DNA from: a virus
Lineage: Duplodnaviria > Heunggongvirae > Uroviricota > Caudoviricetes
Virus record (IMG/VR): IMGVR_UViG_3300015177_000008
Coordinates: 47,519-111,518 of that record
Strand: one strand, 5' to 3'
DNA: 64,000 bases
In this document: piece by piece, positions 8,371 to 62,526 of the stretch
Position numbering within the stretch: the first letter of the stretch is position 1
Layout: every line of letters begins with the position of its first letter
Program-made: the position numbers and the translations under genes
Notes under the pieces: generated by a model
Told to the model about the DNA's origin: nothing
The model's input: only the letters and a program-made list of their open reading frames with translations
Database searches by the model: none

Positions 8371-8390
8371 ATAGGTAAACACTTACTTAC
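8371..8390. promoter_or_regulatory. Class-2 AT-rich palindrome (ATARGTA...TACYTAT family)
   Basis: ataggtaaacacttacttac, overlapping the rnhA stop codon. Confidence 0.3.
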
Positions 8391-8980
8391 TGATTATTGT
8401 AAACAAAACCAATATCTTTCTTGTGAGGCGTATCTGCTGCGGAAAAAGCTGCGATCTTCGCCAGTCGATCACAGATTTCATTTTCACGATGCCCGGCGTG
8501 GCCTTTAACCCACTTCCAGCGAACATTATGTCGACTGGCAGCCTCATCCAGACGCTTCCACAGATCAACATTCTTTACTGGTTTTTTATCAGAAGTCATC
8601 CATCCATTACGTTTCCACCATTTCATCCACTGTGTCATGCCGTTTTTCAGATACTGGCTATCAGAGTGCAAAATAACGTTGCATGGATATTTCAAACGCT
8701 CCAGCCCGATAAGTGCCCCCATCATCTCCATGCGGTTATTGGTGGTGCTATGAAAACCATCTGAGAACTCGCGTTCCTCTCCACGATACTGGAGAACGAT
8801 ACCGTAACCGCCTGGGCCACCCGGATTTTTAAGGCAAGAGCCATCACTGAAGATTTTCACGGTTTTAAGCTGGGGATTGAACTCTACGACAGGCGTTGTG
8901 GGATTGGTGCGGGGAGAATTTTTGTTTTTGGCTTTTTTGCGAGTTTTTTCTTGCGATCGGGCTGGTGTCTTCGTCGTCAT
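8387..8980 (-). CDS. rnhA: Ribonuclease H
   Basis: ATG at 8980 with AGGAG upstream; RNase HI motifs ([32 protein letters not shown]). Track ORF extends upstream to 9034. Confidence 0.8.
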
Positions 8981-9039
8981 ATAAACTCCTGAATCAAGCG
9001 CCGCGCCGATTTTTTTCCTCGCGCGTGCGCACACGCGTG

Positions 9040-9560
9040 CGTGTTAATAATTATTAAAATAAACAAATTACTTCCCAGAACAGGTTTTTATAAACCTGAA
9101 CTGAACGAACGAAGTGAGTGAAGTTCACCTCGAACGAAGTGAGAGGTTGTCTTTTCAGGTAATACTCTCCCAGGGAGGTGAGTATAAAAATCCCTCACCA
9201 ACCTGGTCGTTTCATAACCTGAAAAGTTATGGCCTAAGTCTACTGCCAGCTTAGACTTGGGAAGTTATGGATGACAGCACCCCAGAACCGAGATCTTCCC
9301 ACACTTTATGAAGGGGAGTACTGGATTCAACCTCTCGAAACACCCCAGACTCGACAATCATAAAGTGACCCTTGTCTCCGCTCACTTTGGTTCCCCCTTC
9401 CCCGACACCTAAACGGCACCGGTTCTACGCTGGTAGTGAGCTTTTTTAAACCTGACGCCAGTGACGCTTACCCCCACCCATCAGGTCGAGTCTCCAGTCT
9501 ACGACTGGAAACTATCAGATCTTAGCACTTACAATTCATTTTATGAATAGTTTGTACTTA
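9040..9560. other. About 520-bp non-coding region with dense nested hairpins and short direct repeats (candidate structured RNA or origin-like region)
   Basis: No ORF of 60 aa or more; paired segments cttttcaggt/acctgaaaag, ggtgag/ctcacc, aagtcta/tagactt, ccagtc/gactgg; direct repeats gaacgaagtgag x2 and caccccaga x2; GC near 50 percent. Confidence 0.3.
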
Positions 9561-9564
9561 TCTA

Positions 9565-9795
9565 TCATTTCGATTGATTATTTTCTCGACCATGTAGTTG
9601 AACATTCAAGGCAAACACCTCGTTGATCAACTCACCTAAAAGCTGTTCAACAAGTTCGCGATGCTCCCCAAGATGCAAGCACTTAATTGCCCATTCGTAC
9701 AAGTTGAAAGCCTGCTCGCGGTCTTTCATCATTTCACGAGCCTTAGCCAGAAAATCGCTCTCTACGAGCGCAACAACATTGGTCGGGTATGGCAT
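9565..9795 (-). CDS. Hypothetical protein (76 aa)
   Basis: ORF in minus-strand gene array. Confidence 0.4.
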   Translation of the reverse strand: MPYPTNVVALVESDFLAKAREMMKDREQAFNLYEWAIKCLHLGEHRELVEQLLGELINEVFALNVQLHGRENNQSK

Positions 9796-9903
9796 GTTAG
9801 TTTTCCTTAAAGTGGTTCATAAAATCGATTTTAAAGCGTCTGGGAAGGGGTTCTAGTGGATTCTGTAGTGATGTTCAGGTCTGGAGTCTCTGATACAAAA
9901 CAG

Positions 9904-9958
9904 CCTGTTTCCGTATATTAATAATTAATATGTAGTTATTTATATATACAGAAGCAGG
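9904..9958. repeat. 55-bp element with 16-bp terminal inverted repeats (copy 1 of 2)
   Basis: cctgtttccgtatat ... tatatacagaagcagg around an AT-rich core; second copy at 57862..57916. Confidence 0.5.
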
Positions 9959-10488
9959 CTAATTACAGACGCCAGAACAAACTAAGCAGCCTTCTTTGAT
10001 GGTCTTTTTTTTTCTGACCACATTCGCAGGATCATACCCTCCCAGACTTTTCATGACGTCCAAAGGGATCTTGCTTATAGAGTGCCCAGCGTCCTGACAG
10101 AATCCTCGAAAAACAACGAGCATACTGCCACCGGGGTTGATGTTTACTTCTACCTGACCCAGATTGACGTCAGGCTCGACAAACGCTACGCGGCCACCAG
10201 ACAGAATAATCGTCTCATTCGCACACTCTGTTGCACGCTCATACCACTTTGTATCTAGGGATTGAGGAAGGCAATTGTACCTGGCTGTCCCCATTCAGAT
10301 TTCAAAGCATCACGCTCAACGCCTATGAAATTAGGCAGCTTTGCATTGTCCTTGTTGCAGGCAACGTCAACATCAAATGTCACTCCAAGATAACGTTGAA
10401 TGGCAGAAAACAGCCAGTCAGGTGTTCTCCAGAGGTCACGAAGAGAGTTGTCGCGCTTTCGCTGTTTGATTTTTTCGGCTGCAATCAT
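9959..10488 (-). pseudogene. Phage-type DNA N6-adenine methyltransferase (Dam family), disrupted
   Basis: Two ORFs in different frames: 10255..10488 ends ...GTIAFLNP-stop where NPPY/F is expected; 9959..10294 carries the downstream LPxxLDTKWY block. Apparent internal deletion plus frameshift. Confidence 0.5.
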
Positions 10489-10499
10489 CTTCTCTCTCG

Positions 10500-10519
10500 A
10501 TAGGTAAGTAAATACCTAT
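10500..10519. promoter_or_regulatory. Class-2 AT-rich palindrome
   Basis: ataggtaagtaaatacctat, just upstream of the Dam-like ORF start. Confidence 0.35.
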
Positions 10520-12979: not shown

Positions 12980-12988
12980 TACTACTCC

Positions 12989-15001: not shown

Positions 15002-16132
15002 TCACACCGCCACTGGAACCTTGATCCACGGTAGAGGGTCATAGCCAAGAATTAAAACCTCGTCCCATTTGAAATCATCCAACTCTGACCATTCATGAGG
15101 GAAAATAACGACCGGATCTGAATGCTCTGGAGCCTGTCGTTTCATTAGCTCACACACACCTTCCATGTGGTTGTTGTACAAATGCACGTCAAAGCCAAAA
15201 TGCACAAATGCACCGGCCATGTGACCCGTAATCTTCGCGAGAAAATGAGTGAGAATGCCATAGCCAGCAATATTGAATGGCATACCAACAAAAGTGTCTA
15301 CGCTACGCTGTACGAGGCAGGAGTTGAGGATGCGTTTGGGGATTCCAAGTTCATCCAGTTCAGCTTCAGTAACACTGCCGTCCATCTCCAGATCGTATAG
15401 CATCTTGGTGTAGATAGACTCGTAACCGAGGCGACTGTGTTGAAGACCAATGTCAGTTGCCATCGTTAAACGGGTTTCAAAATCCAGCTCACGACTCCAC
15501 AAAGAGAAGACAAAGTGGCAAGGTGGCAGTTTCATATCCTCAAGCTCGCCTACGTTCCATGCGTTAAGCATGATGCGACGATCGGTAGGGTTCGTGCGCA
15601 GTGTATCGACAATACGCTGTAGCTGATCGATTTCACGGGACAGCACTACGCGATCTTCACTGATACCCAGGTATCCCTCGACTTTGTACCCGCGTTCACG
15701 GAAAGTAGCGATCTTGCTCAGATATTCACTATGGCTCACGATGCGGGTATCTTCCCATCGACGCCACTGCTTACCGGAAACCGGCCCCAAATCGCCATTC
15801 TCATCGGCCCATGCATCCCAAATCTTAACGCCGTTATCCTTGAGAAATTGGATGTTGCCCGTGCCTTTCAGATACCACTCAAGTTCGACAAGCAGTGGCT
15901 TAAGATTTACCGCCTTTCCAGAAATAAGCGGCACAGTCCCACCAGTAAGCATGTAGTAAGAGGGAACGTAGCAGGTGCTTAAAGTACCAGTGCCTGTGCG
16001 ATCATCAGCCTGCACGCCGCTTTTAAGCACCGTCTCAATAACTTTTGCATACGATGCGTTTGTTACCTGACCGTTCGTATGCTCACGATTCAAAAGGAGT
16101 GACACAAAAACCTCACAAAGATAAGTAATCAC
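15002..16132 (-). CDS. thyA: Thymidylate synthase (with two insertions relative to ThyA as I recall it)
   Basis: DRTGTGT, WADENGDLGPV, RRIMLNAWNVGEL, LPPCH, PFNIAGYG motifs; true start uncertain because the annotated ATG lies inside a class-2 palindrome. Confidence 0.85.
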   Translation of the reverse strand: MITYLCEVFVSLLLNREHTNGQVTNASYAKVIETVLKSGVQADDRTGTGTLSTCYVPSYYMLTGGTVPLISGKAVNLKPLLVELEWYLKGTGNIQFLKDNGVKIWDAWADENGDLGPVSGKQWRRWEDTRIVSHSEYLSKIATFRERGYKVEGYLGISEDRVVLSREIDQLQRIVDTLRTNPTDRRIMLNAWNVGELEDMKLPPCHFVFSLWSRELDFETRLTMATDIGLQHSRLGYESIYTKMLYDLEMDGSVTEAELDELGIPKRILNSCLVQRSVDTFVGMPFNIAGYGILTHFLAKITGHMAGAFVHFGFDVHLYNNHMEGVCELMKRQAPEHSDPVVIFPHEWSELDDFKWDEVLILGYDPLPWIKVPVAV

Positions 16133-16138
16133 TTATTC
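16120..16138. promoter_or_regulatory. Class-2 AT-rich palindrome
   Basis: gataagtaatcacttattc, overlapping the thyA 5' end. Confidence 0.35.
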
Positions 16139-16275
16139 ATTAAGTGAGTTTACATTTATTGAGGGAACAAGGCCAGATAGATAAAAAATGGTGGCCTATG
16201 GCCACCAAAAACGAATAGTTGCTTCAGGAATTTAACGCGCCAACACAATATACATAGATAGATAACTACCTACAA

Positions 16276-20785: not shown

Positions 20786-20833
20786 GTATCACCAAATAAA
20801 GAGGGCCACTATATTTAGTGGCCCATATTAATA

Positions 20834-20851
20834 GATAAGCACTTACCTATC
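20834..20851. promoter_or_regulatory. Class-2 AT-rich palindrome
   Basis: gataagcacttacctatc upstream of nrdA. Confidence 0.35.
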
Positions 20852-20858
20852 AATGAGA

Positions 20859-24316: not shown

Positions 24317-25402
24317 TCACACAGCCTCCGAACTCTCCGCTTCGGTGAGGATTTCCTGACACAAAATATCCAATTTGCTCAGATCAAATCCGCCGTCAGT
24401 ATCGTGGACAATCTTGCAATAAGCAGATACCGACTCTCCCAGGCTATCGATTTTGCTGGTTTCAGTTGTGCTGGCTGTCCCTTCCATCATTGATGACTTA
24501 CGGATGAAGTTGCACACGACACCTTTTGCACCCATTGTTTTGAGGATGTTCTGGTACTTAATGCCTTCTTCATCGTTCTCAATTACGGCGCGGAAACGCA
24601 CGTAGTTGCCGCGAATTTGGTCATCAGCAACATCATCTTCCAGGTTAATGAATTTAGGCGCACTGGTTTCGTAGTGACTGAAACTGCCGTCCGGGTTTAC
24701 GATCATGTAGCCAGCCAGAGATCCAACATCTCCCCAATTTTGATGAGTCAGTGCACCGACACTGATAACTCCAGGAATGACCTCTTTGTGGTTGTGGTAA
24801 TGCCCACTAAGCACGAGACGAAAGCCGATATCCTTTAACTCCTGCGCATCGATACCGACGTCAGGCATTGTTGGAATGGCTTTGTTAATGGATGTATGGA
24901 TAACAACGTCATGGTTATCACCTTCTACGCTCTTACGTAATGCTTTCAGATCGCTGATAAGCTCCGCATGATTGTTACGCCAGCTAATCAGGTGGACAGT
25001 CACATCACCAATTTTTATTGAGTGTGGGCGCTTGCCACATACGATTACCACGCCGATAGAACTCAGCGATGCTGCTGCGTTGGCGCTATATACTGAATCG
25101 TTGGTTTCAAGATCGTGATTACCGGCCAGCATTACTACTGTCAGATCAAGCTCGTTGATAATCCACTTGTACGTTTCAGTTACGTAATGCAAAACAGAAG
25201 GGGACACAGTTCCTCGGACGTGAAATGTATCACCGGCAACCAACATGTACTTACAACCGGCCTTCTTCATGGCGATGGCTGCTTCTTTCGTTGCTTCCAA
25301 CTGTATTTCAAGTCTGGAGTTAAGCCCCTCAGCGTTCGTCGTGGAGAACGCATCCCATTTGTGGTAGTGGCAGTCAGAAATGACGCCGTATGGCAAAGTC
25401 AT
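24317..25402 (-). CDS. sbcD: SbcD/Mre11-like nuclease
   Basis: Calcineurin-like phosphoesterase motifs DCHYH, AGDTFH, GNHD. Confidence 0.8.
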   Translation of the reverse strand: MTLPYGVISDCHYHKWDAFSTTNAEGLNSRLEIQLEATKEAAIAMKKAGCKYMLVAGDTFHVRGTVSPSVLHYVTETYKWIINELDLTVVMLAGNHDLETNDSVYSANAAASLSSIGVVIVCGKRPHSIKIGDVTVHLISWRNNHAELISDLKALRKSVEGDNHDVVIHTSINKAIPTMPDVGIDAQELKDIGFRLVLSGHYHNHKEVIPGVISVGALTHQNWGDVGSLAGYMIVNPDGSFSHYETSAPKFINLEDDVADDQIRGNYVRFRAVIENDEEGIKYQNILKTMGAKGVVCNFIRKSSMMEGTASTTETSKIDSLGESVSAYCKIVHDTDGGFDLSKLDILCQEILTEAESSEAV

Positions 25403-25514: not shown

Positions 25515-25534
25515 ATAAGTAAGTATATACCTAT
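25515..25534. promoter_or_regulatory. Class-2 AT-rich palindrome
   Basis: ataagtaagtatatacctat upstream of sbcD. Confidence 0.35.
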
Positions 25535-26496: not shown

Positions 26497-26605
26497 TCAT
26501 GTATGCTGTCAGCGGTAATTGATAGTCTGTCAGCGGTTCACCGTATGCTGCCAACTGTTTTTGGTATTCTGTCAGCGGCAAATCAAGTATGCTGTCAGCG
26601 GTTGA
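26497..26605. repeat. Iterons, upstream set (about 5 copies of TATGCTGTCAGCGGT and variants)
   Basis: Direct repeats tatgctgtcagcggt, gtctgtcagcggt, tattctgtcagcggc with irregular spacing. Confidence 0.7.
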
Positions 26606-26622
26606 ATGACAAAGGTGTCCAC

Positions 26623-27717: not shown

Positions 27718-27718
27718 T

Positions 27719-28250: not shown

Positions 28251-28296
28251 ACGACTATGAAATATGACTGCGGAACGTGCCGCAGTCAGTTTGCAT

Positions 28297-29020: not shown

Positions 29021-29059
29021 GATAGGTAGATACTAACTTATATAAATTTTACTGTAAAC

Positions 29060-30738: not shown

Positions 30739-30741
30739 TAC

Positions 30742-30973: not shown

Positions 30974-30990
30974 GATAAGTAAGTACTTAT
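30974..30990. promoter_or_regulatory. Class-2 AT-rich palindrome
   Basis: gataagtaagtacttat upstream of the 30742..30942 start. Confidence 0.35.
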
Positions 30991-31034
30991 ATATTTTCAA
31001 GAAATAAAAAAGGCGTCCTGTGGACGCCTTGTGT

Positions 31035-43111: not shown

Positions 43112-43172
43112 GCGTTTTTCCTTTGTTCTCTAATGAGCGTTCAACTTCTTATATAAATATACCATTAACTAT

Positions 43173-43190
43173 CGTAAGTGCTTACTTATC
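43173..43190. promoter_or_regulatory. Class-2 AT-rich palindrome
   Basis: cgtaagtgcttacttatc upstream of the CobS-like gene. Confidence 0.35.
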
Positions 43191-43206: not shown

Positions 43207-45315
43207 TCACTTCAAAATGATACGAGATAGTTCAGTAACTACAGATGAACCAAGACTATCAACGCTCGTTACCAGGGCATGATTTGAGTAAAATCTCTCC
43301 GGTGCGTCAGTCATGATGCCAATTGCCATCAAATCAATGTCAGTCTGCGTTTCAATTTGCTTCGCAACCGAACGCAAATGAGCGTCAAAACCTCTCCCAA
43401 CAGCCCACGGCGCGCCATCGCTCAGAACAAGCATGATCTTCCTGTCCTCCAAGCGACCGGAAAATAACGATGCAAGGCTGGCTATGCTTTCACCATCCAC
43501 GTTATTAAGAAGTGGGAATGTGTAGCCTACGCACCCCATACGTGAGCGAACTTCGCGAGAATTTGCTTTTTCATTCCAATTTTTGATGATAGGTAGCATT
43601 AAAGATTCAAAGCGAGAGAACTCATATTTGATAGCCTTAAGTTCTCCTGCTGCCATATGACTGCCAAATGTAGTGAAGCCGGTGATAATGTTGGGAACAT
43701 TTATTCGATCAAGTGCATCGGCGATGGTATATGCACTTGCAAGAGCTAGTTTTATCGTTTCGCCACTCATTGAACCCGATAAATCAATCACTTGTTGAAC
43801 ACAGGCGTTAACGGCTTTAGATTCTTCTTTTTTACGAAACACGCGATCATCATTCATTGTTAATCTGTAGATACTTGAACCATGAATGCGCCCCCGACGC
43901 TGGCCAGGTATAAACTGAACTCTGTTTCTGCTTGCTATTGCACGTTCCAGGTCTTTTGCCAGCGTCGACGAAACACCTGACGAAAGGTGCTTTTCAATAT
44001 ATTTGTCGAAGAGTTGGTTGCCTTCAGGAACGATGCGATAACGGCTGATTGGATATCCACCTAAATCAATATCGGAGAATGTTTTAATAAGCCGTTTGAT
44101 ATGGGCTTCTGCCTGATCAATCGAGCCGATGAAGTCGTATGAGCGATTGTATGGCCTGTATTCGCTTTTCGAGCTTTCTGTTAACTCGCTTTTAATCGTT
44201 TCGGATAGCGCATCTTCTGTCATGCCTCCGACTTCATCTTCCATGCTATCCAACTCCTCTAAAGCCTCTTCCAGACTCATTTTTGACGGAGTTGGAATGT
44301 CTGAAGAGCCGTCTTCTGTCGATTTTCTTTTTTCGTGGTCAGTGGTAAATGATTCTGACGCCGCGTTATCAGAAGCACCAGAATCTGATACCTCTTTATC
44401 ATTTTCTGTATCATCGAATATTGTTTCTGATGATTCAGAATTATCTGAATCATCACTGTCGTTATTATCATGTTTGTGCTTACTGTGTGATTCTGATTTG
44501 ATAGATTTGTGATTATCTAACGCTGGGGGTGTCTCATGATCTTCGTTGTCTTCATTGTTTTCTCCAGAGGCATCCGTCTGGTCAGCGTCTGAAGGATCGG
44601 AAGTTTTTCCCGGAGCTGACTCCTTACCTTTGCTTTCACTTTCAGTGTCTTTGAGGATCTTAGCTATGGTCGCAGCCACCTTTACACAATCCTCGGTGCA
44701 AGACATGTTACGCACGGCCACATCGATACCATGTTCTTTTAATAATGAAATTGGTTTCTCAATGACAGGCCAATATTCATCCATGAAATCTACGAACGGT
44801 GCTTGGCCATCCCAGGCTCTTACAACCGGACAGAGAAAGAAGTTTAGAAAAAGCGCGCGCTGATCTTTACCACAATAAGCAATAGCCTCTGAAGCCTTTG
44901 GTTTAAAGACTTTTTCGATTATAAGGCGCTGAGTTGCCATCAGATTACGTCTTGTTCCGTTAAAGACCTGACCCATTTTTCGCTCGATGAACACGTCTTC
45001 TAAGGCATTCCATAGCGACCAGGAAGGAACGCGTCCTTTTTCTCTCATTTTGTTGGACACACGAATATCGGTAAACAAAATGTGAGCAACCTCATGATCG
45101 AGAAATCCGCGCACAGCATTCATCAATGCCGGTGTTGCGTTATCCGGGATTGATGGGATGTTTACGAGAATTGGCTCTCCATCATCGTTATAGCGTACAT
45201 AAGCGTCGTCCCCTCGTTCTGCAACAGGGATGTTTTTACCTGAAAGGAGAGCGACTACTCGTTTTACACTGTCACGGAAGTCCTGAACCTCTTTGATGGA
45301 ATGTTTTTTAGACAT
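43207..45315 (-). CDS. CobT-like protein with von Willebrand A domain
   Basis: MIDAS-type DLSGSM; long acidic Ser/Asp/Glu-rich low-complexity insert; degenerate class-1-like site upstream. Confidence 0.6.
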   Translation of the reverse strand: MSKKHSIKEVQDFRDSVKRVVALLSGKNIPVAERGDDAYVRYNDDGEPILVNIPSIPDNATPALMNAVRGFLDHEVAHILFTDIRVSNKMREKGRVPSWSLWNALEDVFIERKMGQVFNGTRRNLMATQRLIIEKVFKPKASEAIAYCGKDQRALFLNFFLCPVVRAWDGQAPFVDFMDEYWPVIEKPISLLKEHGIDVAVRNMSCTEDCVKVAATIAKILKDTESESKGKESAPGKTSDPSDADQTDASGENNEDNEDHETPPALDNHKSIKSESHSKHKHDNNDSDDSDNSESSETIFDDTENDKEVSDSGASDNAASESFTTDHEKRKSTEDGSSDIPTPSKMSLEEALEELDSMEDEVGGMTEDALSETIKSELTESSKSEYRPYNRSYDFIGSIDQAEAHIKRLIKTFSDIDLGGYPISRYRIVPEGNQLFDKYIEKHLSSGVSSTLAKDLERAIASRNRVQFIPGQRRGRIHGSSIYRLTMNDDRVFRKKEESKAVNACVQQVIDLSGSMSGETIKLALASAYTIADALDRINVPNIITGFTTFGSHMAAGELKAIKYEFSRFESLMLPIIKNWNEKANSREVRSRMGCVGYTFPLLNNVDGESIASLASLFSGRLEDRKIMLVLSDGAPWAVGRGFDAHLRSVAKQIETQTDIDLMAIGIMTDAPERFYSNHALVTSVDSLGSSVVTELSRIILK

Positions 45316-45413: not shown

Positions 45414-45626
45414 TTAACAGATTCTGACGGCTAAAGACCCGGAGCCGGTATTGAGAAGCGTGAAGCGTTTGTTGTTAAGTTCGAATATAAAGCCAGTTGT
45501 GTCATTCACACCAACCTGAATCTGCTCATTCGGTAGATCGGTGAGGATGTCAGCCACATACTCATCAGCTAATTTCTGTACGTGTCCGATCTCAAGAGCG
45601 ATTAGACTGGAAATAGTGGTTTTCAT
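45414..45626 (-). CDS. Hypothetical protein (70 aa)
   Basis: ORF. Confidence 0.35.
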   Translation of the reverse strand: MKTTISSLIALEIGHVQKLADEYVADILTDLPNEQIQVGVNDTTGFIFELNNKRFTLLNTGSGSLAVRIC

Positions 45627-45804
45627 TCAATCAATCCATTCTAACTTATACTATGGTAAGGAATACTACTAAAATTTGTATCAATACTGAATACATCTAT
45701 ATCAGATGCAAGTTAATTTTCTTACCTATTTTGGGCTGGTTTTTCTCCATGCATGGACCTTTGCTCGGTCTTACAAGTGCCTGCCGAAAAAAAATGATAA
45801 TAGC

Positions 45805-45832
45805 TTTACAACCCTAACCTTTGATGTAATAT
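45805..45832 (+). promoter_or_regulatory. Sigma70-like promoter of the HTH regulator gene
   Basis: TTTACA - 16 nt - TAATAT, immediately followed by the class-2-type palindrome ggtaagcacttacc. Confidence 0.45.
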
Positions 45833-45833
45833 C

Positions 45834-45847
45834 GGTAAGCACTTACC
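45834..45847. promoter_or_regulatory. Class-2-type palindrome at the regulator's transcription start region
   Basis: ggtaagcacttacc directly downstream of the -10 (autoregulatory position). Confidence 0.4.
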
Positions 45848-45878
45848 AGAGAGAATTAAACGCGCAAAGGTTGTAACA

Positions 45879-46265
45879 ATGTCTGACAACAAGATTGAAT
45901 TTATAGAAAGTCGCTATGCTGCTTTTATCGCAGGGCTGATTGAATCCTCACCTATGAGTCAGGCCCAAATAGCCAGACTTATTGGTTATAAAAATGCCAA
46001 CAACCTTTCTTTAATTAAAAGTGGCAAAATTCCTTTGCCTATCGATAAGGTTCGTCCGCTGGCGCTGGCACTGGGTATTGAGCCAAGTCGTCTTATGATG
46101 ATGGTGCTGGAAGAACGCCAACCCGAACTTGCAGCATTTTTATACAAAGAAGGCACTGCTCCTCTTAACGAGGACGAAAAACAGGTTCTTGCTGCATATA
46201 ACGAGCGATTCGGTAAAGAGAAAGGCGCATCACAAAAGGTTGTTGAGGCCATAAAGTCTCTATGA
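45879..46265 (+). CDS. XRE-family helix-turn-helix transcriptional regulator (candidate repressor)
   Basis: HTH MSQAQIARLIGYKNANNLSLIKSG; plus-strand gene convergent with the recombinase. Confidence 0.65.
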   Translation: MSDNKIEFIESRYAAFIAGLIESSPMSQAQIARLIGYKNANNLSLIKSGKIPLPIDKVRPLALALGIEPSRLMMMVLEERQPELAAFLYKEGTAPLNEDEKQVLAAYNERFGKEKGASQKVVEAIKSL

Positions 46266-47363
46266 AAAATTTACACGAATAAGCTCTGTTGATAGACGAT
46301 CTCCCTTAAATTTGTGGTCAATTTCGTCTAAATCCGGTTGCTCTACGATTGATGCGATGTACGTCGAGAAACTTTCTAAGGCGTCTCGCATCTCGTCCAT
46401 ATAATCGTGCCGGTCGTAGACCCGATCTATCCCCTCAAGACTGTGGTTCATGATTTTGCGTGATACCTCCTGGCTTATGCCTAATGCTGGGAAGTAACTA
46501 CGCGCAGTACGGCGCAAATCTCGGGGTGTAAATGGCTCAAGCTCCATCAGTTCTGGTCGTTCCAGAATACGACGTAATGCCTGGGCTATTGCCACTTTAG
46601 ACATAGGAAGGTCTTTCCCGATTTTTTTATTCGAAGGCACGAGCCACTGGCTGTCTTTACCGTATTCGAACAACTCTTCAATGCATGTGCGCATTAATGT
46701 GCTTAAAGGCAGAGAATGCTCACGGGCAGATTTGTTCCTCTTGCCTTGATTCCAAACCCCACGCTTAAGATTGAACTCACTTTTTTTAGCCCGCAGTACT
46801 TCGTCAGGTCGTCTTGCGGATACAAGACATAGCCTGGCCGCCCATTTTGTACCAGCGCACACATTGAAGTAGTCCCATATATTCCAGAACACCCATACCT
46901 CTGCGTCAGTCAGCTTCCGCTCGCGGGGCGTGGGCTTTGCGCCACCGGCAACTTTGTTAAGTGACATATCGTTTAACGGTGACACGTCTATCATCCCCTG
47001 GAAGGCGCACCAGCTAAGGAACTGCTTCATTAGAGAGAAAACGCGGCGGCCCATAACAATTTTGCCATCCAGTATTAGTGGGTTGACCAGTTGGTTCACC
47101 ATGAACCTATTAATGTCACTTACTTTTACATCGGCAATGTGCGGCAAAACATGTATCAAAATACAATGAACAGCGATCTCTGGCCGACGTCTGGTTATCA
47201 GCAGAGATAAGCGAGTGAATAACATGAATGCGTCCGAGAATCTCAAGTCATTGCTGACCTGGGAGATCATAACGGCCTGCATTTGAGATGCTCTTTCGAG
47301 ATACTCTATCGCCTCTTTTGAGGTGTTCTCCGCAGCGCGTGCTCTGTCAAAGCTATTTTTCAT
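46260..47363 (-). CDS. Tyrosine recombinase/integrase
   Basis: C-terminal catalytic region PFTPRDLRRTARSYF...NHSLEGIDRVYDRHDY (R, H-x-x-R and Y signature). Confidence 0.7.
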   Translation of the reverse strand: MKNSFDRARAAENTSKEAIEYLERASQMQAVMISQVSNDLRFSDAFMLFTRLSLLITRRRPEIAVHCILIHVLPHIADVKVSDINRFMVNQLVNPLILDGKIVMGRRVFSLMKQFLSWCAFQGMIDVSPLNDMSLNKVAGGAKPTPRERKLTDAEVWVFWNIWDYFNVCAGTKWAARLCLVSARRPDEVLRAKKSEFNLKRGVWNQGKRNKSAREHSLPLSTLMRTCIEELFEYGKDSQWLVPSNKKIGKDLPMSKVAIAQALRRILERPELMELEPFTPRDLRRTARSYFPALGISQEVSRKIMNHSLEGIDRVYDRHDYMDEMRDALESFSTYIASIVEQPDLDEIDHKFKGDRLSTELIRVNFS

Positions 47364-47573
47364 ATGACAATCACCGAGTTACGCCGATGCACTGTATAAG
47401 TAAACAGTATATTAGGCATAGATTCTTATAGGATCAAGAGTAAAAGTAACTCATTTTCAGCAATGATTCCATACATAGTAGGTATGGAATCATTTTGACG
47501 TTGTTTTTTGAATTTTAAGGGAAATGGGAGTGAGTTTGGTGGGAATAAAAACGGCTCCTGTGAGCCGTTAAAA

Positions 47574-47861: not shown

Positions 47862-47883
47862 GATAGGTATGTGCATACTTATC
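47862..47883. promoter_or_regulatory. Class-2 AT-rich palindrome
   Basis: gataggtatgtgcatacttatc between the glutaredoxin gene and the plus-strand membrane protein gene. Confidence 0.35.
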
Positions 47884-47993
47884 TTTGCAGTCTGCATTAT
47901 AAAGCTATTAAAGCCTCGATCAATCTATTAATTAAGGCATTGTTTGGTTAACATTACCCTAATATTTTATAGTTAGTAGAGTGAAATACATAC

Positions 47994-49448: not shown

Positions 49449-49535
49449 TGGCGGAGAGTAATGGAATCGAACCATCATCGCTTGCGCAATGGGACGGTTT
49501 TCAAGACCGCTTGAGCACCATGCTCCCTACTCTCC
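49449..49535 (-). tRNA. tRNA-Ser (anticodon UGA), type II
   Basis: Manual fold: acceptor GGAGAGT/ACTCTCC, anticodon loop CTTGAAA, long variable arm, T-loop TTCGATT, discriminator G, encoded CCA. Confidence 0.7.
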
Positions 49536-49679
49536 GGCCGTTGTGGTGGCCGGTACTGAATCTCCGGCATACGGTGCAGCCAATTAGGACTACGGACGAT
49601 CACCGCTCGCGAAAGGGAAGATTTGCGGCCGCATTTCCCTAACATCCAAGAAAGCTATCGCATCAGTCTGCGAATCCAC

Positions 49680-49759
49680 CACAACGGTAAGATCACTACC
49701 TTTCGACCAGTCATTGTGCACATGAACGACGATTAACCGTAATGATCTTATCGTTGTGT
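49680..49759. repeat. Long hairpin B (16-bp stem, 1 mismatch)
   Basis: cacaacggtaagatca ... tgatcttatcgttgtg. Confidence 0.5.
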
Positions 49760-49809
49760 TGTGAAGCCAGATGCTTATCTTCTGGTTGCTTCAAAGAGCT
49801 GCACTTCCT

Positions 49810-49897
49810 CACAACGGTAAGAGCACTGGTCTGACTCTATCGATTTACGGGCTTGTGGGTCAGTATCGCCGATTCGCCCAATGCTCTTACCTGTTGT
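49810..49897. repeat. Long hairpin C (16-bp stem, 1-nt bulge), 2 nt after tRNA-Thr
   Basis: cacaacggtaagagca ... tgctcttacctgttgtg. Confidence 0.5.
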
Positions 49898-49899
49898 GT

Positions 49900-49975
49900 T
49901 GGTGCCGGTTAACGGGATCGAACCGCTGACATCCTGCTTACAAGGCAGGCGCTCTACCAACTGAGCTAAACCGGC
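49900..49975 (-). tRNA. tRNA-Thr (anticodon UGU)
   Basis: Manual fold: acceptor GCCGGTT/AACCGGC, D-arm GCTC..GAGC, anticodon stem CCTGC/GCAGG with loop CTTGTAA, T-loop TTCGATC, encoded CCA. Confidence 0.8.
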
Positions 49976-49977
49976 AT

Positions 49978-50052
49978 TGGCGATGGTGGGTGGATTCGAA
50001 CCACCGACCAGTTGGTTAACAGCCAACTGCTCTACCGCTGAGCTACACCATC
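49978..50052 (-). tRNA. tRNA-Asn (anticodon GUU)
   Basis: Manual fold: acceptor GATGGTG/CACCATC, anticodon stem GTTGG/CCAAC with loop CTGTTAA, T-arm GGTGG TTCGAAT CCACC, encoded CCA. Confidence 0.8.
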
Positions 50053-50800: not shown

Positions 50801-50822
50801 GATAAGTAAGTAAATACTTATC
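50801..50822. promoter_or_regulatory. Class-2 AT-rich palindrome (perfect 8-bp arms)
   Basis: gataagtaagtaaatacttatc. Confidence 0.4.
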
Positions 50823-53499: not shown

Positions 53500-54282
53500 T
53501 TACCAACTTCCCCAGCTAATCATCTTGCGCTGATTGCTTTCTAAGCGATAGGGGACAAGAAGCTCTGTGACATGATTGATGGCGTATGATTTAGCCTCTT
53601 GCTCTATCATCGGTAATTCGTTAGCAATCCTGACCATCTTCCCAGCAAATTCCGCCATTACGCCATCACATGCCTTCCCAGCATCAATAACGATATGCAC
53701 CAGATCCAACTGGCTTTTGCACATGTCGCAAAGAGACGCATACTCACTCTCTCTGATTACATTTACGGCATCATTAGCCCCTTTATTAAGCAAGACTTCC
53801 AACAGGTTTGTCGGGGTAACGAAATCGGCTTTAAGTGACAATGTTCTCTCACCTTTTATCGACCGTAAGTACTCTTCGTAGTTTTGCTTGTCTTCCAGCA
53901 AAACTAAGCTATGCATAGTTAGAAGTGATTCTTGAATAGCCTCTTCAATAATACTGTCATTTGACGCACAAAAAACGGTATTTGTGTAGATCACTTTGCC
54001 ATCCATCCATGCCCCAACCTGCACTTTAAGACTGATCGGGTTTTCTTTGCTAATAAAAACAACTAATGCAGAACGCCGTGCACAAGAAGGTTCACCCCAT
54101 ACGTGTAACTCAACTTTCAGATAAGGTAGCCCTGGTAGCGGGATCTCAACCAAACGAGTGGCGATATGATCCATTGCTGTTTTTACGGCTTTTTCAATGA
54201 TGTCTAGCCGATTGCTCTCGCTGATTTCTAAACCAGTTTTATCAATGATGTCGCAGGCTAATTTCTGAATTTCGTCTTTCAT
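53500..54282 (-). CDS. Hypothetical protein
   Basis: 260 aa ORF. Confidence 0.45.
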   Translation of the reverse strand: MKDEIQKLACDIIDKTGLEISESNRLDIIEKAVKTAMDHIATRLVEIPLPGLPYLKVELHVWGEPSCARRSALVVFISKENPISLKVQVGAWMDGKVIYTNTVFCASNDSIIEEAIQESLLTMHSLVLLEDKQNYEEYLRSIKGERTLSLKADFVTPTNLLEVLLNKGANDAVNVIRESEYASLCDMCKSQLDLVHIVIDAGKACDGVMAEFAGKMVRIANELPMIEQEAKSYAINHVTELLVPYRLESNQRKMISWGSW

Positions 54283-54323: not shown

Positions 54324-54343
54324 ATAAGTAGTCATCTACTTAT
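54324..54343. promoter_or_regulatory. Class-2 AT-rich palindrome
   Basis: ataagtagtcatctacttat (8-bp arms). Confidence 0.35.
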
Positions 54344-57756: not shown

Positions 57757-57778
57757 GGTAGGTAGTTACTTACTTATC
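57757..57778. promoter_or_regulatory. Class-2 AT-rich palindrome
   Basis: ggtaggtagttacttacttatc. Confidence 0.3.
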
Positions 57779-60463: not shown

Positions 60464-60470
60464 TTTACTC

Positions 60471-60992
60471 GTGAGCAATACGACGATAGAGATTTTCTCT
60501 GGAGAGAAAGATTATGATCTAAACGGTTTTGATTGCGGCGAAGAGTCACTAAACGCCTTTTTAGCCAACCACTTAAAAAGGCAGCATGAGGGAAAAATTC
60601 TTCGTGCTTATGTGCTTTGCACTCAAGAAGAAAGGCCAAAAGTGTTAGGGTATTACACTTTGTCAGGTAGTTGTTTTGAAAAGGAGTCCTTACCTTCACG
60701 AAGCAAACAAAAGAAGGTTCCTTATCGGAATGTTCCAAGTGTTACTTTGGGTAGGCTGGCTTTGGACAAGTCCCTTCAAGGTCAAGGATTTGGCTCAATG
60801 CTTGTAACACATGCAATGCGCGTTGTGTACAATGCATCTCTTGCTGTAGGCATTCATGGACTTTTCGTTGAGGCGTTAAATGACAAAGCCAAGGCGTTTT
60901 ATAAAAGTTTAGGCTTTATCCAGCTGGTTGGTAACAACGAGCGTTCTTTGTTCTATCCTACAAAATCTATCGAAAAATTGTTCGAAGAATAA
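60471..60992 (+). CDS. GNAT-family acetyltransferase toxin (TacT-like)
   Basis: 173 aa with GNAT core (QGQGFGSMLVTHAM...); GTG start 8 nt after the antitoxin stop; hairpin gttcccctca tt tgaggggaac follows. Confidence 0.7.
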   Translation: MSNTTIEIFSGEKDYDLNGFDCGEESLNAFLANHLKRQHEGKILRAYVLCTQEERPKVLGYYTLSGSCFEKESLPSRSKQKKVPYRNVPSVTLGRLALDKSLQGQGFGSMLVTHAMRVVYNASLAVGIHGLFVEALNDKAKAFYKSLGFIQLVGNNERSLFYPTKSIEKLFEE

Positions 60993-61160
60993 TGTGTTCC
61001 CCTCATTTGAGGGGAACTTCGACATCACCAACCACAAACCCTCTCTCCCATCGTATTGTGAAAAAGGATTTGGCGTTCGGTTTCTTCAGTCATTACATCA
61101 TTATTGCTGATATAGATAGGCTCAGCTCCATCGCAGAACAATACGCTGGCGGTTTGTGGT

Positions 61161-61412
61161 TTAATGACGCACCCACTTATCATACAACTCACGATGAACG
61201 GCAGAAGCATCTTTCTGACGTATTTTATTGCTCGTCTCATTCACCACTTCCACTGTGCTTTGAAGTCGTTTTCTGTCTTCCTGTTTTGCCTTCTCTTCCA
61301 TTGCTCGTCGCGCCGCATTTCCGCCCATCGTGTAAGCGCCGACCAGAACGAAAAGAACGGCAGCCAGCGTAATCAAAGCAACTTTTAGCTTTGTCATCAG
61401 GCTGCCTAGCAT
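61161..61412 (-). CDS. Membrane protein with N-terminal TM helix and charged coiled region
   Basis: 83 aa; architecture like an i-spanin or Rz-type protein but short. Confidence 0.35.
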   Translation of the reverse strand: MLGSLMTKLKVALITLAAVLFVLVGAYTMGGNAARRAMEEKAKQEDRKRLQSTVEVVNETSNKIRQKDASAVHRELYDKWVRH

Positions 61413-61413
61413 A

Positions 61414-62106
61414 TTAGACCATCCCTTTCTGGTGTTTTCTTACCTGCGACCAGGCAATGAATCCTGCCACAACAATAGTGGCAATACCGAAGATGATGCG
61501 TACTGTATCCCCGCTAGAGATATGACCTTGTGCCTTATCCATAGCAGCGGAAACCTGCGGCATAACATCGGCAAGCTGCGCCAGACCAATACCTGCTGTA
61601 ACAGTTGCGCCAGCGGTTTCTTTAGTTACAGGAACAGCCTTCACGGTTTTCACCGGCTTAACGACGCCAGCTCGACGCAGACCTTCCTCAATAACTTCTG
61701 CCGTATACCAGGTGTTCAGCGTTTTTAGCGGGCCTCGGCCATTCTCGTGGCGAATGATTGCCTCAACCAAAGGTCGAAGGATGTCGTAATCATGCAGATC
61801 GATGATCATGTCTGCGGTTACACCAACGGCTTTAGACACCTCATTAATGTAGGCGTCAGTATTGTTTTCATTCGGCGGTGCCCAGCGTTCAATAACTTCA
61901 CGAATGGTATCGATACTTGAGCCGTCTTTTGCGCGACGTTTATCGTGGTAGGTAATTAGAGTCACCGCCAGCGCACGAATCCCCCAAACAGGGTCTTTAA
62001 ACGTGCAAAAGCGCGGTTCGTCTGGATTCGCAACCAGACCTTGCCACGGTGATCCTTTATCCAGATTACCGGGGTTATTATTACGAATGCCTCTCGGAGT
62101 CTTCAT
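61414..62106 (-). CDS. Hypothetical protein with C-terminal TM helix
   Basis: ATG at 62106 after AGGAGAT; N-terminal motif GIRNNNPGNL; C-terminal hydrophobic anchor. Confidence 0.4.
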   Translation of the reverse strand: MKTPRGIRNNNPGNLDKGSPWQGLVANPDEPRFCTFKDPVWGIRALAVTLITYHDKRRAKDGSSIDTIREVIERWAPPNENNTDAYINEVSKAVGVTADMIIDLHDYDILRPLVEAIIRHENGRGPLKTLNTWYTAEVIEEGLRRAGVVKPVKTVKAVPVTKETAGATVTAGIGLAQLADVMPQVSAAMDKAQGHISSGDTVRIIFGIATIVVAGFIAWSQVRKHQKGMV

Positions 62107-62119
62107 CCTTGATCTCCTG

Positions 62120-62455
62120 TTATTGCAGTCCACTTTTTACGCCATACGCGGCTAACCCCAAAAGCAGTGCGGTAATAATGAACGACGTTATTTTAGAAAC
62201 AATGCCGCCAAAGAACCCACTTGAGATGGAGTCCAACCGGTTAAGGAGTTTGTCCAGATTGGAGTGTTGAATACTATGTTGCGCCGGGGTCATATCACCA
62301 AAGTAGGTTTTCAGCTGATCGTTGACCTCCTGGCCAATTTCTTCACGTAGCTCTTTACCTAATTTGCCGACAACCTCCCGAGCAACGATCGCGGCAATGC
62401 GCTCAACTTGCTCTGTTGTTACGCCCGCCATCTCGTTCGACATATTTTCCTCCAT
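62120..62455 (-). CDS. Hypothetical protein with C-terminal TM helix
   Basis: 111 aa ORF. Confidence 0.35.
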   Translation of the reverse strand: MEENMSNEMAGVTTEQVERIAAIVAREVVGKLGKELREEIGQEVNDQLKTYFGDMTPAQHSIQHSNLDKLLNRLDSISSGFFGGIVSKITSFIITALLLGLAAYGVKSGLQ

Positions 62456-62505
62456 GAAAAGTCAAATCGGGATGGCGGATTTATATCACATTTTATCTTT
62501 TTTGT

Positions 62506-62526
62506 ATAGGTATGCACTTACCTATC
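62506..62526. promoter_or_regulatory. Class-2 AT-rich palindrome
   Basis: ataggtatgcacttacctatc. Confidence 0.35.

What the first reader, a model, noticed from the sequence alone, without database searches (positions are those of the whole stretch)
8371..62526. Second palindrome family (GATAAGTA...TACTTATC / GGTAAG..CTTACC) at about 15 intergenic sites, including the promoter of the HTH regulator
AT-rich inverted repeats built on TAAGTA/TACTTA or GGTAAG/CTTACC half-sites sit upstream of thyA, nrdA, sbcD, the SPFH operon, the SSB-like gene, the CobS-like gene and others. One copy (45834..45847) lies directly after the -10 of the promoter of the XRE-family HTH gene, the position expected for autoregulation. 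The family is distinct from class 1 and may define a second regulon or a temporal promoter class.
Basis: seen in the sequence. Interest (0 to 1): 0.7.

Follow-up and report, generated by a model that had tools for sequence, protein, structure and literature searches.

The report
Repressor operator sites across a phage-plasmid
A 20-base palindrome sits inside the promoters of about fifteen lytic-gene operons of this SSU5-like phage-plasmid and at the promoter of its own small XRE-family HTH regulator, so it is most likely the operator set through which one prophage repressor keeps the whole virus silent.

Summary
Intergenic DNA holds 11 copies with 4 or fewer mismatches, against 0.08 expected. 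The window is an SSU5/pHCM2-like phage-plasmid, 97-98% identical to Escherichia phage Cyrano.

The sites are conserved blocks at orthologous positions in Cyrano, SSU5 and a Klebsiella relative. A related motif sits at matching gene junctions in an Acinetobacter relative. They overlap predicted sigma-70 promoters at unphased positions, with the palindrome centre from about -43 to +17. That spread suits a repressor rather than an activator.

The copy at 45834..45847 follows the -10 of the HTH promoter. This arrangement is kept in E. coli, Salmonella pHCM2, Yersinia pestis pFra, Cronobacter and Klebsiella. The HTH has an XRE fold, occurs only on contigs of about 100-116 kb, and is expressed in the Cyrano lysogen. 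In a Klebsiella oxytoca lineage with a 35%-identical HTH, the dispersed motif changes to ATATGTA-N6-TACATAT at the same gene positions.

The best reading is a dispersed multi-operator repressor regulon that works like P1 C1 but is not homologous to it. Binding by the HTH is inferred, not shown. RNA hairpins and host SlmA sites are disfavoured. I found no published description.

The parts
45879..46265 (+). XRE-family HTH gene (128 aa), the candidate prophage repressor
   Evidence: PHROG phrog_8 'transcriptional regulator' at E 6.6e-12. Pfam HTH_19 scores 18.9 bits, below its 30.2-bit cut-off. AF2 model pLDDT 77; the N-terminal ~75 aa superpose on XRE HTH dimers. 98% identical to CYRAN_45, which is expressed about 10x above background in the LF82 lysogen.
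45805..45832 (+). Predicted sigma-70 promoter of the HTH gene (TTTACA-16-TAATAT)
   Evidence: Tool scan. Conserved in pHCM2, pFra, Cronobacter and Klebsiella plasmids.
45831..45850 (.). Class-2 site at the HTH promoter (perfect inner 14 bp at 45834..45847); centre at about +2 from the predicted start
62506..62525 (.). Class-2 site ATAGGTATGCACTTACCTAT upstream of holin (62120..62455, - strand)
   Evidence: 1 mismatch. Conserved block in SSU5 and Klebsiella, followed by the conserved TGTGATATAAA.
57758..57777 (.). Class-2 site abutting the RBS of the 57005..57754 gene
54324..54343 (.). Class-2 site (ATAAGTAGTCATCTACTTAT) upstream of 53500..54282, followed by TGTAAGAAT
   Evidence: Predicted extended -10 puts the centre at -30.5. 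Orthologous sites in SSU5 and Klebsiella were found by direct scanning; the automated three-genome alignment for this region mis-projected and shows nothing.
50802..50821 (.). Class-2 site plus TATAAGAT, about 750 nt upstream of the tRNA Asn/Thr/Ser cluster (49449..50052, - strand)
47863..47882 (.). Class-2 site just downstream of the TTGATC-16-TATAAT promoter (47923..47896, - strand) of the glutaredoxin gene
   Evidence: the centre is about +17.
43170..43189 (.). Class-2 site upstream of CobS-like gene (41876..43111, - strand)
   Evidence: Sites at the matching position upstream of the CobS homologue in Acinetobacter and K. oxytoca relatives.
35761..35780 (.). Class-2 site filling the spacer of TAGATA-17-TATCAT, upstream of the gp32-like SSB gene (34648..35676, - strand)
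30975..30994 (.). Class-2 site filling the spacer of TTGAAA-17-TATCAT, after a terminator and upstream of the membrane protein/SPFH operon (30942..29908, - strand)
29022..29041 (.). Class-2 site upstream of the small-ORF/Cra-like operon (to 28297, - strand)
25515..25534 (.). Class-2 site upstream of SbcD-like gene (24317..25402, - strand)
   Evidence: Sites at the matching position upstream of the SbcD homologue in Acinetobacter and K. oxytoca relatives.
20803..20853 (-). nrdA control module: TTGATA-17-TAATAT promoter with class-2 site 20831..20850 in the spacer, followed at once by a terminator-like hairpin (GGGCCAC..GTGGCCC plus a T run)
10500..10519 (.). Class-2 site 12 nt upstream of the dam-like gene start (10488, - strand)
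8371..8390 (.). Class-2 site upstream of 7747..8241 (- strand)
3400..3419 (.).
16121..16140 (.). Weak class-2 site (5 mismatches) just upstream of the thyX start
9546..9565 (.). Weak class-2 site 43.5 bp upstream of a TGnTAAGAT promoter that heads a ~500-nt non-coding stretch
   Evidence: The orthologous region (CYRAN_81) is expressed in the lysogen.
45414..45626 (-). 70-aa ORF divergent from the HTH gene (the 'cro position'), first gene of the leftward cobT-cobS-dnaE operon. Class-2 half-sites lie at about 45651..45660 and 45721..45729 in the spacer between the two genes.
   Evidence: The orthologue CYRAN_46 shows the largest rise among the forward-strand lytic genes in the macrophage RNA-seq.

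Best explanation
The class-2 palindromes are operators for a dimeric helix-turn-helix repressor encoded by the phage-plasmid, most likely the 128-aa XRE-family protein at 45879..46265.

In the plasmid-prophage state the repressor would occupy about 15 sites in this window, and about 25 in a whole genome. These sites lie inside or directly next to the sigma-70 promoters of the lytic operons: nucleotide metabolism, recombination, replication, tRNAs and lysis, and in complete relatives also the head and tail genes. Bound there, it would shut RNA polymerase out.

One further site, centred at about +2 of its own promoter, would give negative autoregulation. The logic is that of P1 C1, with one repressor and many dispersed operators, but the protein and the operator sequence are different.

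Shown: the motif is real; it is conserved at orthologous places; it overlaps predicted promoters at unphased positions; the HTH promoter architecture is conserved; the HTH has an XRE fold; the orthologue is expressed in a lysogen.

Inferred: that this protein is the binder, that binding represses, and that the predicted promoters are real.
For: 1. Motif statistics.
2. Dyad symmetry, with the most conserved positions (T2, A3, G5, T6, A7) about 11 bp from their mirror positions. This is what an HTH dimer needs.
3. No sense-strand bias of G.U over A.C pairs (36 vs 31), and 45 other pair-breaking changes. Selection therefore acts on DNA sequence, not on an RNA stem.
4. In three-genome alignments of most sites (window, SSU5 and/or Klebsiella pJN2-26) the palindrome is a conserved block within diverged intergenic DNA.
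5. Placement against predicted promoters. The palindrome centre is at -19.5 (sites 30975, 35761, 29022), -22.5 (nrdA), -9.5 (sbcD), +2.5 (dam), about +2 (HTH), +17.5 (glutaredoxin, a 10/12 promoter), about -30 (3400, 43170, 54324) and -43.5 (9546). These are repressor-type, unphased positions, and two lie downstream of the start.
6. The HTH promoter plus site is conserved in E. coli, pHCM2, Y. pestis pFra, Cronobacter and Klebsiella. Family-like sites also precede HTH homologues of 35-44% identity.
7. The recognition region GYKNxNNLSLIKSGK is nearly invariant while the rest of the protein diverges.
8. HTH homologues are found only on contigs of about 100-116 kb and in 961 plasmid records, in the records inspected always next to the integrase.
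9. CYRAN_45, 98% identical, reads 96 against a background of 9.8 in the LF82 lysogen. The authors list it as the putative master repressor (PMC9928086).
10. Lineage co-variation. In a K. oxytoca phage-plasmid whose HTH is 35% identical, the E. coli-type motif is nearly absent (1 hit). A variant, ATATGTA-N6-TACATAT, is present 16 times against 0.93 expected, at the same gene junctions: thyA, nrdA, sbcD, cobS and cobT.
11. An Acinetobacter relative (HTH 29-38% identical, depending on the alignment) has TAGTAAGnnCTTACTA 11 times against 1.27 expected, upstream of its sbcD, cobS, cobT, primase and lysis homologues.
Against: - No binding data exist.
- Phage SSU5 keeps about 23 good sites but has no homologue of this HTH. 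The force of this is weak, because SSU5 is only 93-96% identical to HTH-bearing plasmids at the deletion point, so the loss may be recent.
- The motif core is conserved across HTH proteins as little as 29-38% identical, which is unusual for phage immunity specificities.
- Some late-region sites in relatives fill tight gene junctions that leave little room for a promoter.
- Public RNA-seq shows no significant excess induction of genes behind the sites (p = 0.10), and no significant link between operator quality and induction (rho 0.17).
- All promoters are consensus predictions only.
- Co-variation cannot exclude another lineage-specific protein.
Confidence: 0.55

Rival explanations
1. The sites are DNA operators, but a different phage-plasmid protein binds them. 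Candidates are a lytic-cycle activator, a Cro-like lytic repressor sharing the operators, or the unassigned 70-aa ORF at 45414..45626. The HTH promoter would then be only one of that protein's targets.
For: - SSU5 lacks the HTH yet keeps sites that are as good as or better than Cyrano's.
- Several promoters have no recognisable -35 and rely on a TGn extended -10, with the palindrome centred near -30 or -43. That resembles activator-dependent promoters.
- The motif core is conserved over very wide protein divergence.
- Phage switches commonly have two proteins sharing one operator set (established knowledge of lambda CI and Cro).
Against: - The site positions are not in helical phase, and two lie downstream of the start (+2, +17), where activators do not work.
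- No sharp preferred distance to a -10 element was found.
- The sigma factor encoded by Acinetobacter and more distant relatives has no homologue here.
- No other conserved regulator has been shown to be expressed in the lysogen at a comparable level, apart from weak expression of CYRAN_114.
Confidence: 0.25
2. The sites are binding sites for the host nucleoid-occlusion protein SlmA. Its 12-bp target GTGAGTACTCAC tolerates A at position 3 and any pyrimidine at position 6, so the family core GTAAGT|ACTTAC is a legal SlmA site. SlmA binding would tie the plasmid to control of cell division, or SlmA would act as a co-repressor.
For: - Tonthat et al. 2011 (PMC3020112) report that G1, T2, A4 and G5 are critical, that position 3 can be any purine (Kd ~60 nM with A), and that position 6 can be any pyrimidine.
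- GTRAGYRCTYAC matches exactly at 43174 and 45835, and with 1 mismatch at 6 more places. The total of 8 compares with 1.57 expected.
- The unscored central position is T in 85% and C in 14% of sites.
Against: - Only 2 of about 15 window sites satisfy the SlmA rules.
- Conservation is strongest in the outer ATA and at T6/A7. It is weaker at the SlmA-critical A8 and G9.
- E. coli SlmA sites are reported not to lie in promoters.
- The K. oxytoca lineage keeps the family at the same places with a variable centre that breaks the SlmA core.
Confidence: 0.05
3. The palindromes act in RNA as hairpins, serving as processing sites, stabilisers, terminators or translational operators between genes.
For: All sites are intergenic and transcribed in the sense direction. 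Several abut ribosome-binding sites (10500, 57758) or fill tight junctions between late genes in relatives.
Against: - No strand asymmetry of G.U against A.C pairs, and many pair-breaking changes without compensation.
- The sequence is conserved, not just the ability to pair.
- The stems are A+T-rich, have a 2-nt centre and are not followed by a U run.
- No Rfam family matches.
Confidence: 0.04
4. The palindromes are selfish or neutral intergenic repeats, REP- or MITE-like, with no regulatory role.
For: They are dispersed, short, palindromic and confined to intergenic DNA.
Against: They sit at orthologous positions in SSU5 and Klebsiella relatives, and related motifs sit at matching gene junctions in Acinetobacter and K. 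oxytoca relatives. They have a fixed relation to promoter elements, and there are no target-site duplications or variable copy insertions.
Confidence: 0.02

Closest known systems
Bacteriophage P1 C1 repressor with its dispersed operators (own knowledge; the P1 genome paper was not available)
   Same: A plasmid prophage is held silent by one repressor acting at many operators scattered over a ~100-kb genome, each tied to a separate operon, including one at the repressor's own gene. A large operator set would also explain why the specificity is frozen across relatives.
   Different: No sequence similarity: a tblastn search of the HTH found only SSU5-like records and no P1-family record. P1 operators are an asymmetric 17-mer (ATTGCTCTAATAAATTT, from memory). 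Here the site is a 20-bp palindrome, and the protein is a small XRE HTH.
Lambdoid CI/Cro and 434/P22 c2 type XRE repressors with palindromic operators
   Same: XRE HTH fold (Foldseek hits include 434 repressor, P22 c2, lambda repressor and a Salmonella phage repressor). Dyad operators overlap promoters. The repressor gene faces a divergent lytic operon and has a site at its own promoter.
   Different: Those systems use clustered operators (OL, OR) at two promoters plus antitermination cascades. Here single operators are spread over more than 15 promoters. The protein has no S24 self-cleavage domain. The fold matches are weak (E 0.02-0.2), and Pfam scores are below the cut-off.
SlmA-binding sequence (SBS) of E. 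coli
   Same: The core consensus GTAAGT|ACTTAC satisfies the published SBS rule GTRAGYRCTYAC.
   Different: Most copies violate the rule. Conservation extends over 20 bp, with the emphasis on the outer arms. The sites lie in promoters, and a sister lineage has lost the core.
P1 Lpa-dependent late promoters (-10 plus an inverted repeat centred near -22; own knowledge)
   Same: Several sites (nrdA, and in relatives after the capsid and tail genes) have a palindrome centred about -20 to -23 directly before a -10 hexamer.
   Different: Other copies are at -30, -43, +2 and +17. No Lpa homologue was looked for. The palindrome sequence is unrelated as far as I recall.

Membership tests
Operator set of a dimeric XRE/CI-type phage repressor | Dyad-symmetric sites with half-sites about one helical turn apart | tested here: met
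   20-bp palindrome with a fixed 2-bp centre. The most conserved positions 2-7 mirror positions 14-19.
Operator set of a dimeric XRE/CI-type phage repressor | Sites overlap core promoter elements or the transcription start | tested here: inconclusive
   Met for 11 of 16 sites against consensus-predicted promoters, but no transcription starts are mapped.
Operator set of a dimeric XRE/CI-type phage repressor | A site at the regulator's own promoter (autoregulation) | tested here: met
   45834..45847 follows the -10 directly. This is conserved in five lineages.
Operator set of a dimeric XRE/CI-type phage repressor | The regulator has an XRE-type HTH DNA-binding domain | tested here: met
   phrog_8 at E 6.6e-12. 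The AF2 model superposes on C.BclI, C.AhdI, ClgR, HigA, 434 and P22 c2 with target-normalised TM 0.7-0.8. Pfam HTH_19 is below its cut-off, and there is no PDB hit by sequence.
Operator set of a dimeric XRE/CI-type phage repressor | The regulator is expressed in the lysogen | tested here: met
   Taken from the literature for the 98%-identical CYRAN_45: 96 normalised reads against a background of 9.8 (PMC9928086).
Operator set of a dimeric XRE/CI-type phage repressor | The protein binds the sites specifically and represses | not testable with these tools
   Needs EMSA or footprinting, ChIP-seq and reporter assays.
P1 C1-type immunity | Many dispersed operators controlling separate operons of a plasmid prophage | tested here: met
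   About 15 in the window and 17-25 per complete genome.
P1 C1-type immunity | Repressor homologous to C1, and the asymmetric 17-bp operator | tested here: not met
   tblastn of the HTH against 50,697 phage records found only 9 SSU5-like records and none of the P1 family. The operator here is palindromic.
SlmA-binding sites | 12-bp GTRAGYRCTYAC with G1, T2, A4 and G5 kept | tested here: not met
   2 exact sites out of about 15. A8 and G9 are less conserved than the outer arm. The core is lost in the K. oxytoca lineage.
SlmA-binding sites | Bound by SlmA in vivo | not testable with these tools
   Needs SlmA ChIP in a lysogen.
LexA (SOS) boxes | CTGT-N8-ACAG | tested here: not met
   Class-2 sites lack it. 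The only good match is a separate site at 47390..47409.
Intrinsic terminators / structured RNA elements | G+C-rich stem plus U run, or covariation that preserves pairing | tested here: not met
   A+T-rich stems, no U run, and no G.U/A.C strand bias. No Rfam match.

The most novel reading that the evidence does not exclude
One small XRE repressor with a nearly frozen 20-bp operator code polices roughly 25 promoters in every member of the SSU5 super-community of phage-plasmids. That includes S. Typhi pHCM2, Y. pestis pMT1/pFra, the Klebsiella elements and even Acinetobacter relatives. Lineages would create new immunity groups by shifting the code by as little as one base pair per half-site (R to T at position 4 in the K. 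oxytoca lineage). Under this reading most enterobacterial SSU5-like elements would be homoimmune, and a single protein-DNA pair would be a handle to switch this whole family on or off.
Probability: 0.35. Interest if true: 0.65.

Novelty: new member of a known kind. Interest (0 to 1): 0.5.

Why it matters
SSU5-like phage-plasmids are common in clinical Enterobacterales (961 plasmid records carry this HTH). They include pHCM2 of S. Typhi and pMT1/pFra of Y. pestis. The reviews I could read describe no lysis-lysogeny circuit for them, and no held paper prints the motif.

A defined operator, a candidate repressor and a map of about 25 controlled promoters make the switch directly testable. The map also gives a rational way to annotate the promoters of this family. 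It suggests which elements should exclude each other. It would also provide a second, independent example of the 'one repressor, many scattered operators' design known from P1.

Tried and rejected
- **RNA hairpin reading.** Rejected: G.U vs A.C counts are 36 vs 31 and there are many uncompensated mismatches. Rfam gives no family.
- **Fixed-geometry promoter box or phage sigma factor.** The -10 offsets are spread, not peaked. The Acinetobacter sigma factor has no homologue in the window, Cyrano or SSU5.
- **'SSU5 lacks the HTH, so the HTH cannot be the binder.'** Weakened: SSU5 is only 93-96% identical to HTH-bearing plasmids at the deletion junction, so the loss may be recent.
- **Host SlmA.** The core fits the published rule, but most copies do not. 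The conservation pattern and the K. oxytoca variant argue against it.
- **Public RNA-seq of the Cyrano lysogen** (PMC9928086, supplementary file 2). A few striking step-ups occur right after palindromes (CYRAN_56, 60-62, 12-13). Overall the first genes after sites are not significantly more induced (Mann-Whitney p = 0.10), and operator quality does not predict induction (rho 0.17, p = 0.5).
- **LexA box as a member of the family.** Rejected.
- **Iterative weight-matrix refinement.** It drifted into A+T-rich noise, so I used fixed-consensus counts instead.
- **Tool failures.** Two attempts at the big protein search failed before a third worked. The P1 genome paper was not available. The PDB sequence search found nothing.

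Full report
**What the window is.** A 6-kb probe is 97-98% identical over about 70% of its length to Escherichia phage CMS-2020a and to phage Cyrano, the SSU5-like phage-plasmid pLF82 of E. coli LF82. Most genes are on the - strand. Cyrano's annotation names them: SbcCD, NrdAB, ThyX, DHFR, a RecA-like protein, a gp32-like SSB, DnaE, CobS/CobT-like proteins, ligase, primase, helicase, the lysis genes, and the plasmid functions RepA with iterons, ParA and toxin-antitoxin pairs.

- GGTAAGCACTTACC is at 45834..45847, right after a TTTACA-16-TAATAT promoter (45805..45832) and 32 nt before the ATG of the 128-aa ORF 45879..46265.
- The 14-mer with up to 2 mismatches occurs 8 times against 1.32 expected. 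TAAGTA..TACTTA occurs 4 times against 0.01.
- In 11.8 kb of intergenic DNA there are 11 copies with 4 or fewer mismatches, against 0.08 in shuffles of that same DNA. The consensus came from these data, so the test is not fully independent, but the excess is enormous.
- About 15 good sites and about 5 weak ones are listed under 'parts'. Hits in true coding sequence have 5 mismatches and look like chance.

**The selection is on DNA sequence, not on an RNA stem.**
- Pooling sites from three genomes gives these frequencies: A1 76%, T2 96%, A3 93%, G4 56%/A4 40%, G5 85%, T6 100%, A7 91%, A8 84%, G9 76%. The unscored centre is T in 85% and C in 14%.
- Departures from symmetry break base pairing as often as they keep it. 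G.U-compatible changes are no more frequent on the sense strand (36) than on the antisense strand (31).
- No Rfam family matches.

**Comparative genomics.**
- Complete genomes of SSU5 (about 77-81% identical) and Cyrano carry 20 and 17 copies with 4 or fewer mismatches, at orthologous junctions.
- In those genomes the motif also lies between terminase and portal, after the capsid gene, before tail genes and before holin.
- In alignments of most sites (window with SSU5 and/or Klebsiella pJN2-26) the palindrome stands out as a conserved block in diverged spacers. It is often followed at a variable distance by a second conserved block that looks like a -10 element: TGTAAGAAT, TATAAGAT or TGTGATATAAA. 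Site 47863 had no orthologue, and the alignment for 54324 mis-projected.
- An Acinetobacter baumannii phage-plasmid has TAGTAAGnnCTTACTA 11 times against 1.27 expected in 40 kb. The copies lie upstream of the sbcD, cobS, cobT, primase and lysis homologues.
- A K. oxytoca phage-plasmid almost lacks the E. coli-type motif (1 hit in 50 kb). It has ATATGTA-N6-TACATAT 16 times against 0.93 expected, upstream of thyA, nrdA, sbcD, cobS, cobT and others.

**Relation to promoters.**
- The tool scan calls the HTH promoter. It also calls a 10/12 promoter for the glutaredoxin gene (TTGATC-16-TATAAT, 47923..47896, - strand), with palindrome 47863..47882 just downstream of it.
- Applying the same criteria around every site puts the palindrome in four kinds of place. 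It fills the 17-bp spacer of TTGAAA/TATCAT (SPFH operon), TAGATA/TATCAT (SSB), TTTATA/TATCAT (29022) and TTGATA/TAATAT (nrdA). It lies over the -10 or the start (sbcD -9.5, dam +2.5, HTH about +2). It lies downstream of the start (glutaredoxin +17.5). Or it replaces the -35 of TGn extended -10 promoters (3400, 43170 and 54324 at about -30; 9546 at -43.5).
- These positions all fall within the RNA polymerase footprint and are not in helical phase. There is no sharp preferred distance to a -10 element. This is the pattern of a repressor's operators, not of an activator box or a special sigma promoter.
- At nrdA the promoter is followed at once by a terminator-like hairpin. The predicted start falls inside the hairpin's 5' arm. 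Transcripts arriving from upstream would therefore terminate, while new ones would not. This last point is inference.

**The HTH protein.**
- It matches PHROG phrog_8 'transcriptional regulator' (E 6.6e-12). It matches Pfam HTH_19 only below the cut-off, and nothing in the PDB by sequence.
- An AlphaFold2 model built from 21 homologues (pLDDT 77) has an N-terminal five-helix XRE domain and three further helices. Foldseek's best matches are XRE dimers that bind palindromes: C.BclI, C.AhdI, ClgR, SaPI Stl, HigA, 434 repressor and P22 c2. The E-values are weak (0.02-0.2) but target-normalised TM is 0.7-0.8.
- Homologues occur only on contigs of about 100-116 kb and in 961 plasmid records. In the records inspected they sit next to the integrase.
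- The promoter TTTACA..TGTAATATC, followed by (G/A)(G/A)TAAG(C/T)ACTTACC, is conserved in E. coli, Salmonella pHCM2, Y. pestis pFra, Cronobacter and Klebsiella, while the surrounding DNA diverges. Family-like sites also precede homologues of 35-44% identity.
- The recognition region GYKNxNNLSLIKSGK is nearly invariant.
- In the LF82 lysogen, CYRAN_45 (98% identical) reads 96 against a background of 9.8 and is listed as the putative master repressor. Cyrano is induced by ciprofloxacin (PMC9928086).

**Mechanism proposed.** One repressor dimer per operator blocks RNA polymerase at each lytic promoter in the plasmid-prophage state, and the site at +2 of its own promoter limits its own synthesis. 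The protein has no self-cleavage domain, so induction must be indirect.

A lead noticed in passing bears on this. A LexA-like box (47390..47409) sits upstream of the integrase gene, which converges on the HTH gene. The integrase and the 70-aa ORF beyond the HTH gene both rise in macrophages, by +4.7 and +6.4 log2, peaking in the same condition. I did not test this lead further.

**Weak points.**
- No binding data exist, and all promoters are predicted.
- SSU5 has the sites but not the HTH. SSU5 is only 93-96% identical to HTH-bearing plasmids at the junction, so a recent loss is plausible.
- The RNA-seq shows no significant class behaviour of genes behind the sites.
- Co-variation with lineage cannot single out the HTH among all lineage-specific proteins. 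A second protein sharing the operators, Cro-like or an activator, remains possible.

**A resemblance worth recording.** The core GTAAGT|ACTTAC obeys the published rule for SlmA-binding sites, in which G, T, A and G at positions 1, 2, 4 and 5 are critical, position 3 is any purine and position 6 any pyrimidine (PMC3020112). Two window sites fit exactly, including the one at the HTH promoter.

Most copies break the rule, however. Conservation is strongest outside the SlmA core. E. coli SlmA sites avoid promoters. The K. oxytoca lineage keeps the family without the core. I treat the resemblance as probably coincidental.

**Comparison with what is known, and novelty.** In function this is closest to P1 C1 with its scattered operators, and in protein type to lambdoid/434-type XRE repressors. 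It is a member of neither family by sequence.

The phage-plasmid papers I read (the LF82/Cyrano paper and a 2024 review) describe no regulatory circuit for SSU5-like elements. No held paper prints the core 12-mers. I therefore file it as a new member of a known kind, with moderate interest.

Noticed in passing
window 47390..47409 (with integrase 46260..47363 on the - strand and HTH 45879..46265 on the + strand): A LexA-box-like CACTGTATAAGTAAACAGTA (1 mismatch to TACTGT-N8-ACAGTA) lies about 25 nt upstream of the integrase start. The integrase gene converges on and overlaps the 3' end of the HTH gene. In published RNA-seq the Cyrano integrase and the 70-aa ORF beyond the HTH gene both rise in macrophages (+4.7 and +6.4 log2), peaking in the same condition. 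SOS-driven read-through antisense to the repressor gene and into the lytic operon could be the induction route.
   Followed up: partly
window 6749, 7478, 18394, 29831, 45333, 56979, 59909 (17-mers): The class-1 family GAAAACAAnTTGTTTAA occurs 9 times with up to 3 mismatches, against 1.4 expected. Copies are nearly all in gene sense and lie a few bases before ribosome-binding sites. It is distinct from class 2, and its function was not examined.
   Followed up: partly
window 27718..28296, next to the rep gene 26503..27717: About 12-13 iterons of TATGCTGTCAGCGGT in three clusters lie downstream of the RepA-like gene. This is the plasmid replication origin.
   Followed up: no
window 9035..9622: A 588-nt stretch has no convincing ORF, is G+C-rich and has many self-complementary runs. 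Its Cyrano counterpart (annotated CYRAN_81) reads 117 against a background of 9.8 in the lysogen. No Rfam family matches. A weak class-2 site sits 43.5 bp before a TGnTAAGAT promoter at its head.
   Followed up: partly
window 20803..20853 (nrdA); also Cyrano 5443 and 15529, SSU5 5471 and 15589: A recurrent composite module: palindrome, then a -10 hexamer directly after it, then a terminator-like hairpin with a T run. The predicted start falls inside the hairpin's 5' arm. The module could therefore stop incoming transcripts while letting its own pass.
   Followed up: partly
window 37480..37898: Full-length match to the Rfam cspA thermoregulator (186 bits against a gathering score of 78), covering a cold-shock protein gene (37562..37873) carried by the phage-plasmid.
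   Followed up: no
window 9959..10488: The dam-like methyltransferase appears split into two ORFs (10255..10488 matches only positions 5-67 of the 169-position Pfam Dam model). In Cyrano it is one 594-nt gene. This may be a frameshift or a pseudogene.
   Followed up: no
L010 15101..15766 (Acinetobacter plasmid); also the annotations of Rhizobium phages (RHEph10, RHph_Y2_11 and RHph_Y2_17_1): Distant relatives encode a sigma-70-family sigma factor next to cobS. The enterobacterial group has only a 67-aa zinc-ribbon-like ORF there (41670..41873), and no homologue of the sigma factor.
   Followed up: partly
SSU5 43661, Klebsiella L009 31932, window 44501..44520 (weak): A class-2 site is conserved inside the cobT-like coding sequence, about 850-900 nt from its start. 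It may mark an internal promoter or a roadblock.
   Followed up: no
L018 (K. oxytoca plasmid CP056499.1) 3222, 7920, 12523, 22069, 27658, 29701, 34986 and others: A sister lineage uses the variant palindrome ATATGTA-N6-TACATAT at the same gene junctions. This could define a different immunity group.
   Followed up: partly
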